A DNA stretch of 64,000 nucleotides from Escherichia coli. GTDB lineage: Bacteria > Pseudomonadota > Gammaproteobacteria > Enterobacterales > Enterobacteriaceae. The notes below the pieces were generated by a model. The model ran no database searches and was not told where the DNA came from. It saw nothing but the letters and a program-made list of their open reading frames with translations. The translations under genes were made by a program, and so were the position numbers. Below, one piece after another: positions 16,393 to 17,250 of this stretch; position 1 is the stretch's first letter; every line of letters begins with the position of its first letter. The stretch lies in NCBI RefSeq assembly GCF_003334405.1, contig NZ_QOWM01000006.1. One strand, 5' to 3'.

Positions 16393-17250
16393 ATGGCTAT
16401 CGAAATCAAAGTACCGGACATCGGGGCTGATGAAGTTGAAATCACCGAGATCCTGGTCAAAGTGGGCGACAAAGTTGAAGCCGAACAGTCGCTGATCACC
16501 GTAGAAGGCGACAAAGCCTCTATGGAAGTTCCGTCTCCGCAGGCGGGTATCGTTAAAGAGATCAAAGTCTCTGTTGGCGATAAAACCCAGACCGGCGCAC
16601 TGATTATGATTTTCGATTCCGCCGACGGTGCAGCAGACGCTGCACCTGCTCAGGCAGAAGAGAAGAAAGAAGCAGCTCCGGCAGCAGCACCAGCGGCTGC
16701 GGCGGCAAAAGACGTTAACGTTCCGGATATCGGCAGCGACGAAGTTGAAGTGACCGAAATCCTGGTGAAAGTTGGCGATAAAGTTGAAGCTGAACAGTCG
16801 CTGATCACCGTAGAAGGCGACAAGGCTTCTATGGAAGTTCCGGCTCCGTTTGCTGGCACCGTGAAAGAGATCAAAGTGAACGTGGGTGATAAAGTGTCTA
16901 CCGGCTCGCTGATTATGGTCTTCGAAGTCGCGGGTGAAGCAGGCGCGGAAGCTCCGGCCGCTAAACAGGAAGCAGCTCCGGCAGCGGCCCCTGCACCAGC
17001 GGCTGGCGTGAAAGAAGTTAACGTTCCGGATATCGGCGGTGACGAAGTTGAAGTGACTGAAGTGATGGTGAAAGTGGGCGACAAAGTTGCCGCTGAACAG
17101 TCACTGATCACCGTAGAAGGCGACAAAGCTTCTATGGAAGTTCCGGCGCCGTTTGCAGGCGTCGTGAAGGAACTGAAAGTCAACGTTGGCGATAAAGTGA
17201 AAACTGGCTCGCTGATTATGATCTTCGAAGTTGAAGGCGCAGCGCCTGCG
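16393..17250 (+). repeat. Tandem triplication encoding the three AceF lipoyl domains (intragenic coding repeat, about 300 bp unit)
   Basis: Three near-identical blocks (...vpdig.[35 protein letters not shown]...) visible at nucleotide level. Confidence 0.9.

What the first reader, a model, noticed from the sequence alone, without database searches (positions are those of the whole stretch)
16393..17250. Triplicated lipoyl-domain coding repeats in aceF generate long antisense shadow ORFs
Three ~300-bp near-identical units encode the lipoyl domains. The repeats allow recombinational loss or gain of domains and explain the low-complexity Ala/Ser/Pro-rich antisense ORF at 16650-17342. This is well-known biology of modest novelty, but it marks a site of potential instability.
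Basis: partly seen in the sequence, partly recalled or inferred. Interest (0 to 1): 0.2.

Follow-up and report, generated by a model that had tools for sequence, protein, structure and literature searches.

The report
Triplicated lipoyl domains of aceF
This is the textbook threefold repeat that encodes the three lipoyl "swinging arm" domains of E. coli pyruvate dehydrogenase subunit E2; the copies are only 74-84% identical, yet public genomes show that they occasionally recombine to give two- or four-domain variants.

Summary
Window 16393-18285 (+) is E. coli aceF, in the operon pdhR-aceE-aceF-lpd. Its 5' half holds three in-frame tandem units starting at 16393, 16702 and 17005. Each unit encodes a lipoyl domain plus an Ala/Pro linker. 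The 240-nt cores are 76%, 74% and 84% identical, and the longest exact shared tracts are 32, 26 and 23 nt. Most of this identity follows from protein conservation plus codon bias.

The instability claim is supported by natural alleles. Of 5,424 complete E. coli genomes, 12 (0.22%) carry in-frame deletions of 192-309 nt. These represent about eight independent events. No complete genome carries a gain. Three deletions have a sampled parent that reproduces them almost exactly (at most one mismatch). In each, the crossover lies in that parent's longest exact tract (26-33 nt), next to or across the lipoyl-lysine codon. Reciprocal four-domain alleles occur in draft E. coli isolates and in one complete Salmonella chromosome.

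The antisense ORF at 16650-17342 is real but is not a gene. It exists because residues 1-316 contain no Tyr or His, not because of the repeat. Non-repeated aceE has a 757-aa antisense ORF.

Verdict: known biology, low interest.

The parts
16393..18285 (+). aceF coding sequence (630 aa): E2p, the dihydrolipoyllysine-residue acetyltransferase of the pyruvate dehydrogenase complex
   Evidence: ORF. NCBIfam equivalogs NF008814 (1101 bits, cut-off 722) and TIGR01348. 99.9% identical to annotated aceF in K-12-like genomes. Pfam architecture.
16393..16632 (+). Repeat unit 1 core: lipoyl domain 1 (aa 1-80; Pfam hit aa 4-73)
16633..16701 (+). Ala/Pro-rich linker 1 (aa 81-103). It holds short direct repeats shared with linker 2, which were used as junctions in the -300 and -306 nt natural alleles.
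   Evidence: D2 repeat family. Junctions of L002 and L004.
16702..16941 (+). Repeat unit 2 core: lipoyl domain 2 (aa 104-183; Pfam hit aa 107-176)
16942..17004 (+). Ala/Pro-rich linker 2 (aa 184-204). It carries the window's rare A186E substitution at nt 16949.
17005..17244 (+). Repeat unit 3 core: lipoyl domain 3 (aa 205-284; Pfam hit aa 207-277)
17245..17370 (+). Ala/Pro-rich linker 3 (aa 285-326). Its length is polymorphic in E. coli: -12 nt and +36 nt alleles exist.
   Evidence: (L009, L010)
16513..16515 (+). Codon of lipoyl-lysine K41 (DKA motif) of domain 1
   Evidence: DKASMEVP motif positions; sequence
16822..16824 (+). Codon of lipoyl-lysine K144 of domain 2
17125..17127 (+). Codon of lipoyl-lysine K245 of domain 3
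   Evidence: K245 is named as the lipoylated residue in PMC8421416.
16483..16514 (+). 32-nt tract identical to 16792-16823. This is the longest exact run between units 1 and 2. It is the site of the natural -309 nt deletion and of one +309 nt duplication.
   Evidence: Junctions of L005 and L023.
16801..16857 (+). Conserved central block of unit 2, paired with 17104-17160 in unit 3. In this window it contains exact runs of 23 and 20 nt. All four natural -303 nt deletions cross over here.
17371..17478 (+). Peripheral-subunit-binding domain (aa 327-362)
   Evidence: Pfam E3_binding, E = 7.5e-16
17587..18279 (+). Catalytic and core-forming acyltransferase domain (aa 399-629)
   Evidence: Pfam 2-oxoacid_dh, E = 3.4e-80
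16650..17342 (-). Antisense 'shadow' ORF (230 aa), judged not to be a gene. Antisense-frame stops bound the open stretch at both ends: one at 16650, where sense GCT|CAG occurs, and the next at 17367, where the first Tyr codon follows a T-ending codon. The listed ORF begins at the first start codon (TTG at 17342).
   Evidence: the resampling null gives P = 1.0

Best explanation
The region is the 5' half of E. coli aceF. Three in-frame head-to-tail units of 309, 303 and about 300 nt each encode an ~80-residue lipoyl domain followed by a flexible Ala/Pro linker. Each domain carries a lipoyl-lysine (K41, K144, K245). These domains ferry acetyl groups between the E1, E2 and E3 active sites.

The triplication is old. 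Units match by position across Escherichia, Salmonella and Citrobacter. Their DNA similarity today is mostly a by-product of protein conservation and strong codon bias.

A central block next to and across the lipoyl-lysine codon (encoding ...[18 protein letters not shown]...) keeps exact tracts of 23-33 nt between units. Misaligned pairing of sister strands at these tracts occasionally removes or adds exactly one unit in frame. Less often the same happens at short repeats in the linkers or at 5-nt microhomologies. Whether the mispairing acts through unequal exchange or through template switching behind the fork is inferred, not shown.

The products are intact two-domain or four-domain E2 chains with hybrid but complete lipoyl domains. 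Selection for the three-domain form keeps such alleles rare; this step is inferred from published growth experiments.

The antisense ORF is a passive consequence of the amino-acid composition of this segment.
For: Identity and architecture are shown.

Repeat anatomy is shown.

Codon-bias null:
- Back-translation gives 72%, 70% and 76% identity, against 76%, 74% and 84% observed.
- Use of the same codon at identical residues is 0.68-0.75, against 0.51 expected (z = 2.5-4.3).

Age of the triplication:
- Orthologous units are 84-95% identical in DNA; paralogous units are 72-88% identical.
- Species-specific residues are shared by units 2 and 3: KVNVGDKV in E. coli, KISTGDKV in Salmonella and Citrobacter.

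Loss alleles:
- A flank-probe search of 5,426 complete E. coli genomes finds 12 with deletions of 192-309 nt.
- All the alleles fetched translate without internal stops, into proteins of 527-566 aa.
- The four -303 alleles sit on backgrounds that differ by 27-41 SNPs per 2.7 kb.
- Three of these four have three-domain relatives that reproduce them with 0-1 mismatch.
- With such parents, the crossover lies in the parent's longest exact tract: 33 nt for C4, 26 nt for VTB97379v and 29 nt for 01_3327.

Heritability:
- Four separately assembled isolates share the -192 allele, and two share the -309 allele.
- The exact 527-aa and 529-aa proteins were seen on 454 and 182 contigs.

Gain alleles:
- Proteins of 727-733 aa occur in E. 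coli isolates and are the exact reciprocals of the deletions.
- The DNA shows perfect 303- or 309-nt tandem duplications, one at the same 29-nt tract.
- A Salmonella Pullorum complete chromosome carries four domains.

From the literature:
- One lipoyl domain suffices for activity (Guest et al. 1985, cited in PMC5013485).
- Fewer domains lower growth rate and yield (Dave et al. 1995, title as listed in the references of PMC10579247).
- RecA-independent template switching gives both deletions and expansions between close direct repeats (PMC7145654).
Against: - The units are far more diverged than substrates usually considered recombination-prone.
- 99.8% of complete genomes keep three domains, and none of the 5,424 has a gain. 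In practice the locus is quite stable.
- The molecular pathway (RecA-dependent exchange versus template switching or slippage) cannot be told from sequence.
- For C2 the crossover interval against its best sampled parent is only 5 nt. For the -192 allele it is a 5-nt microhomology. Not all events fit a long-tract rule.
- Many two- and four-domain sequences come from draft short-read assemblies, where mis-traversal of a graph cycle could mimic exactly these alleles.
Confidence: 0.85

Rival explanations
1. The two- and four-domain alleles are assembly artefacts. Units 2 and 3 (and units 1 and 2) share an exact word, so an assembly graph contains a cycle. Traversing that cycle zero times gives a 'deletion' and twice gives a 'duplication'. 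On this view the real locus never varies.
For: - Several junctions fall exactly in the longest shared exact tract: 26-33 nt and an apparent 57 nt in L020, whose nearest sampled parent differs at 21 sites.
- The duplicated copies are identical to each other, with 0 differences in L020, L022, L023 and L024.
- Most records of variant proteins come from draft assemblies.
- Metagenome-derived four-domain proteins (P0033, P0041, P0046, P0054, P0056) are evident interspecies chimeras.
Against: - Twelve deletion alleles are in assemblies at 'complete genome' level.
- Four separately assembled isolates share the -192 allele, and two share the -309 allele.
- The -192, -306 and -300 alleles, and the +309 allele on a K-12 background, have junction intervals of only 5-17 nt. 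That is shorter than any usual assembly word.
- The shared tracts (at most 33 nt) are shorter than the words used by current assemblers; this last point rests on my own knowledge.
Confidence: 0.08
2. The repeat is effectively inert. Its DNA similarity is only what conserved protein sequence and codon bias impose. The few variant alleles are ordinary rare illegitimate deletions that would occur in any sequence, so the locus is not a special site of instability.
For: - The back-translation null reproduces most of the identity.
- Units match by position across genera.
- 5,412 of 5,424 genomes are unchanged.
- Some events use only 5-nt microhomology.
Against: - All eight deletion events are in frame.
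- Seven of the eight remove one repeat period, within a few nucleotides (300-309 nt).
- Exact reciprocal duplications exist.
- Where a parent that reproduces the allele almost exactly is known, the junction lies in the longest identical tract.
- No comparable control region was surveyed, so the excess over background is argued, not measured.
Confidence: 0.07
3. The antisense ORF 16650-17342 encodes a real Ala/Ser/Thr-rich protein.
For: It is 230 codons long and has a TTG start.
Against: - The frame is open in every synonymous resampling of aceF, usually for longer than observed.
- Its limits coincide with the first Gln-after-T codon and the first Tyr codon of the sense protein.
- Similar or longer antisense ORFs cover aceE, the 3' half of aceF and lpd.
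Confidence: 0.02

Closest known systems
E. coli K-12 AceF (E2p) with three tandem lipoyl domains, as sequenced and engineered by the Guest and Perham laboratories
   Same: - It is the same gene: 2 nucleotide differences in 1,893 nt and 1 amino-acid difference, A186E.
- It has the same architecture of three lipoyl domains, a PSBD and a catalytic domain.
- The literature describes three lipoyl domains that are 73% identical and act redundantly (PMC8421416).
   Different: Nothing structural differs. The window allele has a rare linker-2 substitution, and its exact protein was seen on only 7 contigs.
Engineered aceF alleles with a reduced number of lipoyl domains
   Same: The natural 527-530-aa alleles found here are the kind of in-frame unit deletion that was made in vitro. 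Published work reports that one domain suffices for activity (Guest et al. 1985, cited in PMC5013485). It also reports that fewer domains lower growth rate and yield (Dave et al. 1995, title as listed in the references of PMC10579247). From my own memory only, alleles with more than three domains were also engineered.
   Different: The alleles here arose spontaneously in wild and clinical isolates, and their junctions were chosen by sequence identity rather than by restriction sites. The paper searches found no report of such natural E. coli variants. That library covers only part of the literature.
Loss of lipoyl domains from AceF in the aphid symbiont Serratia symbiotica
   Same: [quoted passage not shown]
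   Different: That case is part of genome reduction in a symbiont. Here the losses are sporadic within a free-living species, and reciprocal gains also occur.
RecA-independent deletion and expansion between close direct repeats (template switching in post-replication gaps)
   Same: Closely spaced direct repeats give both deletions and expansions (PMC7145654). The short repeat period (~300 nt) and the presence of both product types match that description.
   Different: The assay substrates in that work are identical repeats of 101-787 bp. Here the repeats are 74-84% identical, with at most 33 nt of exact identity. The genetic requirements were not tested here.

Membership tests
E2p / AceF, long form (NCBIfam NF008814, TIGR01348) | Whole-protein score above the curated equivalog cut-off | tested here: met
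   NF008814 scores 1101.1 bits against a cut-off of 722. TIGR01348 scores 1040.6 bits against 552.1.
E2p / AceF, long form | Domain order: N-terminal lipoyl domain(s), then the peripheral-subunit-binding domain, then the C-terminal acyltransferase domain | tested here: met
   Pfam finds Biotin_lipoyl three times (aa 4-73, 107-176, 207-277), E3_binding at aa 327-362 and 2-oxoacid_dh at aa 399-629.
E2p / AceF, long form | A lipoylatable lysine in a DKA motif in each lipoyl domain, and the catalytic DHRxxDG motif | tested here: met
   DKASMEVP occurs at aa 40, 143 and 244. [12 protein letters not shown] is present near the C-terminus of the translation. Actual lipoylation was not tested.
E2p / AceF, long form | Operon context with E1p and E3 | tested here: met
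   A pdhR-like ORF ends at 13554; aceE is at 13715-16378, aceF at 16393-18285 and lpd ends at 20034. RefSeq annotation of matching genomes agrees.
Copy-number-variable tandem coding repeat (unequal exchange or template switching) | Head-to-tail, in-frame units whose period is a multiple of 3 | tested here: met
   The periods are 309 and 303 nt.
Copy-number-variable tandem coding repeat | Exact identity tracts of about 20-30 nt or more between units. This minimum for efficient homologous pairing in E. coli comes from my own knowledge of Shen & Huang 1986 and Watt et al. 1985 and was not checked here. | tested here: met
   The tracts are 32, 26 and 23 nt in this window, and up to 33 nt (51 nt in an O157:H7 allele) in other E. 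coli alleles. These values sit at the threshold, not well above it.
Copy-number-variable tandem coding repeat | Natural alleles that differ by whole units, with junctions inside the repeats | tested here: met
   12 of 5,424 complete genomes carry a loss and none carries a gain. Gains occur in draft isolates and in a complete Salmonella genome. Junctions are mapped.
Copy-number-variable tandem coding repeat | Dependence on RecA, on mismatch repair, or on replication-gap template switching | not testable with these tools
   This needs genetics: fluctuation tests in recA, mutS and uup radD backgrounds.
Contingency (phase-variable) locus | High-frequency reversible switching that produces mixed populations and many alleles per lineage | tested here: not met
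   Variants make up 0.22% of complete genomes, and no complete E. coli genome carries a gain. The units are 300 nt long and diverged, not short identical repeats.
Antisense protein-coding gene | An open frame longer than the sense coding sequence alone would give | tested here: not met
   The observed open stretch is 717 nt and the resampling null mean is 936 nt; P(null >= observed) = 1.0.

The most novel reading that the evidence does not exclude
Lipoyl-domain number in AceF could be a naturally tunable trait rather than only a rare defect. Occasional gene conversion between units would maintain the exact-identity tract at the lipoyl-lysine codons, keeping the locus able to step between two, three and four domains. 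Some two-domain alleles would then be favoured in particular lineages or niches. The 527-aa allele, seen on 454 contigs, and the 529-aa allele, seen on 182, might be examples. Supporting hints are the excess of shared codons (z up to 4.3), the species-specific residues shared by units 2 and 3, and the recurrence of the same protein on four backgrounds. None of these shows selection.
Probability: 0.07. Interest if true: 0.45.

Novelty: already known. Interest (0 to 1): 0.2.

Why it matters
The repeat itself is textbook. [quoted passage not shown]

The modest addition here is population evidence. The engineered result that domain number can be changed also happens spontaneously. About eight independent one-unit or partial losses occur among 5,424 complete E. 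coli genomes, and reciprocal gains occur elsewhere. For three of the four in-register exchanges whose parent reproduces the allele almost exactly, the junction sits in an exact tract of 26-33 nt even though overall divergence is 16-26%.

This has three practical uses:
- It is a natural example of how little identity suffices for unit-number change.
- It warns annotators: NCBI's annotation pipeline (PGAP) labels one intact 527-aa allele a pseudogene.
- It warns users of metagenome assemblies, which produce chimeric four-domain AceF proteins at this block.

Tried and rejected
1. Whole-locus megablast with each deletion allele, meant to find its nearest three-domain parent. This gave nothing useful. 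The ranking put the other deletion alleles first, because three-domain genomes align in overlapping pieces of lower identity. Flank-only queries replaced it and worked.

2. Crossover mapping against the window's own allele. This was misleading because of lineage SNPs. It was redone with lineage-matched parents. Rb-50 and FDAARGOS_1283 still lack a close parent, so their intervals are uncertain.

3. Four-domain proteins from ENA metagenome assemblies (P0033, P0041, P0046, P0054, P0056). These were rejected as evidence because they join E. coli units to Citrobacter- or Enterobacter-like units.

4. Literature searches for natural variation in domain number in E. coli, or for evolved aceF in-frame changes. 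They found only engineered variants and the Serratia symbiotica case.

5. The idea that the antisense ORF is a product of the repeat, or a gene. Rejected by the resampling null.

6. A formal gene-conversion test on polymorphic sites. It was considered and not run: at two-fold degenerate sites the only synonymous alternative is usually the paralogue's codon, so the test has little power.

Full report
**What is there**

The window carries an ORF at 16393-18285 (+) of 630 aa. A pdhR-like ORF and an 887-aa aceE (13715-16378) lie upstream, and lpd lies downstream. The protein passes the NCBIfam equivalog for the E2 acetyltransferase of pyruvate dehydrogenase: NF008814 scores 1101 bits against a cut-off of 722, and TIGR01348 also passes. 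Pfam finds three Biotin_lipoyl domains (aa 4-73, 107-176, 207-277), an E3-binding domain (aa 327-362) and the 2-oxoacid_dh catalytic domain (aa 399-629). Megablast against 5,426 complete E. coli genomes matches annotated aceF in 5,424 of them at full length. K-12-like strains are the best hits at 99.9%. The window differs from a K-12-type allele at three positions in 2.9 kb:
- 16890 (synonymous);
- 16949 (A186E, in linker 2);
- 18383 (intergenic).

The exact window protein is in the public collection, on 7 contigs.

**The repeat**

The repeat finder reports three 300-nt copies spaced 309 and 303 nt apart. Tandem Repeats Finder reports a 303-nt period, 2.7 copies and 80% matches, with a score of 1003. 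In codon register the units start at 16393, 16702 and 17005. The VPDIG and DKASMEVP motifs recur at aa 7/110/211 and aa 40/143/244.

The 240-nt cores compare as follows:

| Unit pair | Core identity | Longest exact in-register run |
|---|---|---|
| 1 v 2 | 76.2% | 32 nt |
| 1 v 3 | 73.8% | 26 nt |
| 2 v 3 | 83.8% | 23 nt |

"Near-identical" therefore overstates the case. Mismatches are concentrated at third codon positions.

**How much of the DNA similarity is more than protein similarity?**

I back-translated the three domain sequences using the codon usage of the rest of the operon. The expected identities are 72%, 70% and 76%, with a standard deviation of about 1.8%. The observed values exceed these only modestly. 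At residues identical between units, the same codon is used in 68-75% of cases against 51% expected (z = 2.5-4.3). Most of the repeat's nucleotide identity is therefore a by-product of conserved protein sequence and strong codon bias. A small excess remains.

**Age of the triplication**

I used Salmonella and Citrobacter aceF DNA recovered and compared units.
- Units at the same position in different genera are 84-95% identical in DNA. Unit 1 is 94-95% identical.
- Units at different positions within one genome are 72-88% identical.

The triplication is therefore older than the split of these genera.

There are also footprints of exchange between units since that split.
- Units 2 and 3 share KVNVGDKV in E. 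coli but KISTGDKV in Salmonella and Citrobacter.
- E. coli unit 2 has the unit-1 form [14 protein letters not shown], where Salmonella unit 2 has [14 protein letters not shown].
- In the central block, paralogues within a species share codons in 59 of 68 cases. E. coli-Salmonella cross-species comparisons of units 2 and 3 share 32 of 45.

This is suggestive, not a formal test.

**Does the number of units vary in nature? Losses**

I built a 500-nt query from the two unique flanks (16161-16410 and 17341-17590). The search tool joins two matched pieces only if they lie within 750 nt of each other. A normal gene has a 930-nt gap, so it gives two half-matches. A gene lacking a unit gives one full match.

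Twelve of 5,424 complete genomes gave a full match. Their spans are shorter than normal by:

| Shortening | Genomes |
|---|---|
| 303 nt | 4 |
| 300 nt | 1 |
| 306 nt | 1 |
| 309 nt | 2 |
| 192 nt | 4 |

The nine alleles I fetched, covering every length class, translate without internal stops to 527-566 aa.
- The -303 alleles encode a complete hybrid of unit 2 (N-terminal part) and unit 3 (C-terminal part).
- The -309 allele encodes a unit-1/unit-2 hybrid.
- The -300 and -306 alleles join linker 1 to linker 2 and drop unit 2 entirely.
- The -192 allele is out of register. It joins ...KVNVGDKV near the end of unit 2 to AAEQ... of unit 3 at a 5-nt microhomology. This exploits the internal two-fold similarity of the domain.

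**Are the losses independent, and where are the junctions?**

The four -303 alleles differ from one another at 27-41 sites in 2.7 kb. Flank-only queries and fetched parents gave these results:

| Deletion allele | Three-domain parent | Mismatches to parent minus one unit | Crossover tract |
|---|---|---|---|
| C4 (-303) | T-HYM1 | 1 in 2,727 nt | 33 nt |
| VTB97379v (-303) | strain 104 | 0 in 2,727 nt | 26 nt |
| C2 (-303) | strain 503440 type | 0 in 1,590 nt | 5 nt |
| 01_3327 (-309) | strain 503440 type | 1 | 29 nt |

- For C4, VTB97379v and 01_3327 the crossover tract is the longest exact run between the two units in that parent.
- For C2 the interval is only 5 nt against the sampled parent. 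A known polymorphism in unit 2 would extend it to 32 nt.
- The -306 allele has a 13-nt tract. The -192 allele has 5 nt and matches its parent with 0 mismatches.
- Rb-50 (-303) has no close three-domain relative among complete genomes; the best is 99.2%.

I count about eight independent deletion events. The alleles are heritable: four separately assembled blood isolates from Taiwan share the -192 allele, and two strains share the -309 allele.

Exact look-up in the 15-billion-protein collection shows:
- a cluster of 305 distinct two-domain sequences;
- the 529-aa protein on 182 contigs;
- the 527-aa protein on 454 contigs;
- the 530-aa protein on 22 contigs.

**Gains**

A 1,160-nt flank query joins its pieces up to 1,080 nt apart. 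It matched in full in all 5,424 genomes. No complete E. coli genome therefore has an insertion of more than about 150 nt here.

The protein search, however, ranks four-domain AceF proteins first.
- Proteins of 727-733 aa from E. coli isolates have the structures 1-2-[3N/2C]-3 and 1-[2N/1C]-2-3. These are the exact reciprocals of the -303 and -309 deletions.
- Lineage-specific substitutions appear in both copies in P0042 and P0043, as expected for recent duplication within a lineage.
- At the DNA level, two isolates with the 733-aa protein sit on backgrounds differing at 47 sites in 3.7 kb. Each has a perfect 309-nt tandem duplication. One uses the same 29-nt tract as the -309 deletion. The other is on a K-12 background, with 0 mismatches and a 5-nt junction interval.
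- Four-domain alleles also occur in Salmonella, including the complete chromosome CP006575.1, and in a Citrobacter isolate.
- Four-domain proteins from metagenome assemblies are interspecies chimeras and I discard them.

**Artefact check**

A shared exact word between units creates a cycle in an assembly graph. Mis-traversing that cycle would give exactly ±1-unit alleles, so draft-assembly counts must be read with care. Four points argue against this as the whole explanation:
- twelve alleles are in complete-level assemblies;
- several isolates share the same allele;
- several junction intervals are only 5-17 nt;
- the shared tracts (at most 33 nt) are shorter than the words used by current assemblers. 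This last point rests on my own knowledge.

**Smaller length variation**

Linker 3 has a -12 nt allele (626 aa, on at least 1,000 contigs) and a +36 nt allele (642 aa, on 91 contigs).

**Mechanism**

Shown:
- in-frame tandem units;
- exact tracts of 23-33 nt next to or across the lipoyl-lysine codon;
- natural ±1-unit alleles, many with junctions in those tracts;
- reciprocal products;
- some events at microhomologies.

Inferred:
- RecA-independent template switching is documented to give both deletions and expansions between close direct repeats (PMC7145654).
- A minimum of about 20-30 bp of identity for efficient homologous exchange in E. coli is my recollection of Shen & Huang 1986 and Watt et al. 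1985. I did not check it here.

Selection is also inferred. Published work reports that one domain suffices for activity (Guest et al. 1985, cited in PMC5013485). It also reports that lowering the domain content reduces growth rate and yield (Dave et al. 1995, title as listed in the references of PMC10579247). This fits 99.8% of genomes keeping three domains.

**The antisense ORF**

The ORF at 16650-17342 (-) exists. Its frame is offset by 2 from the sense codons. A stop in that frame needs sense NNT|TAN, NNC|TAN or NNT|CAN, that is, a Tyr, His or Gln codon after a suitable codon. Residues 1-316 of AceF have no Tyr, no His and 8 Gln. The open stretch is bounded by stops at GCT|CAG (16650) and at the first Tyr, GCT|TAT (17367).

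Synonymous resampling of the same protein leaves this frame open for 936 nt on average, against 717 nt observed (P = 1.0). The in-register antisense frame is open for 757 codons over non-repeated aceE, 409 codons over the 3' half of aceF and 285 codons over lpd. This is because TTA, CTA and TCA codons are nearly absent from these genes. The repeat explains only the internal repetitiveness of the antisense product.

**Comparison with what is known, and verdict**

This is the known AceF triplication (PMC8421416). Engineered variants in domain number and natural domain loss in Serratia symbiotica are on record. The held literature gave no report of natural variants in domain number within E. coli, but that library is incomplete.

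The adjective "near-identical" and the causal link to the antisense ORF are not. Novelty: already known. Interest: 0.2.

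Noticed in passing
window 16890, 16949, 18383: The window differs from K-12-type genomes at three sites in 2.9 kb: a synonymous change in unit 2, A186E in linker 2, and a G for A in the aceF-lpd spacer (GTTTGAAAATTG against GTTTAAAAATTG). None of the 5,426 complete genomes matches aceF at 100%. The exact protein is known from only 7 contigs.
   Followed up: partly
window about 18434-18577 (aceF-lpd spacer): The window and K-12-like alleles carry a ~130-nt insert that is absent from other E. coli lineages (L020, L023). It contains AATCCCCAGGAGCTTACATAAGTAAGTGACTGGGGTGAGGG. From memory this resembles the core of an ERIC/IRU intergenic repeat; I did not test that identification.
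   Followed up: partly
window 13964-16237 (-), 17101-18330 (-), 19204-20061 (-): Very long in-register antisense ORFs (757, 409 and 285 aa) lie over aceE, the 3' half of aceF and lpd. The codons TTA, CTA and TCA are almost absent from these genes: 2, 1 and 2 antisense stops in that frame.
   Followed up: yes
window 20338-20578, inside the ORF 20105-21958 (-): A second in-frame coding tandem repeat: 96-nt period, 2.5 copies, 88% matches. It encodes repeats like ...ARERIQSASPEQRQAVREKMQTNP... in a 617-aa protein with a His/Asp-rich stretch.
   Followed up: no
L005 (NZ_CP074961.1, strain 01_3327) 1033-2616: RefSeq marks the intact 527-aa two-domain aceF as a pseudogene ('missing N-terminus'). The frame starts at the normal ATG and has no internal stop, so this looks like an annotation artefact of the hybrid domain.
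   Followed up: yes
proteins P0066 (680 aa), P0069 (668 aa): Other in-frame duplications occur in E. coli AceF: a 50-aa duplication of the peripheral-subunit-binding region, and a 38-aa duplication inside lipoyl domain 2. The second joins ...SLIMV to TVEGDKA..., using the domain's internal two-fold similarity.
   Followed up: no
proteins P0033, P0041, P0046, P0054, P0056 (ENA metagenome assemblies): Chimeric 'four-domain' AceF proteins join E. coli units to units of another enterobacterial genus at the conserved central block. This is a likely cross-species mis-assembly hotspot in metagenomes.
   Followed up: partly
L009 and L010 (linker 3, equivalent to window about 17245-17300): Linker 3 length is polymorphic. 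A -12 nt allele (626 aa) is common, on at least 1,000 contigs. A +36 nt allele duplicating [12 protein letters not shown] (642 aa) is on 91 contigs.
   Followed up: partly
E. coli genome searches: A few matches to aceE-aceF (3-6 places) lie on records labelled as plasmids. One laboratory strain (JCL301) lacks most of aceF.
   Followed up: no
L027 (Salmonella Pullorum CP006575.1) and L026 (Citrobacter): Their four-domain alleles have rearranged unit order (1, 2N/3C, 3N/2C, 3 and 1N/2C, 3N/1C, 2, 3). This needs more than one exchange, or reflects assembly error.
   Followed up: no
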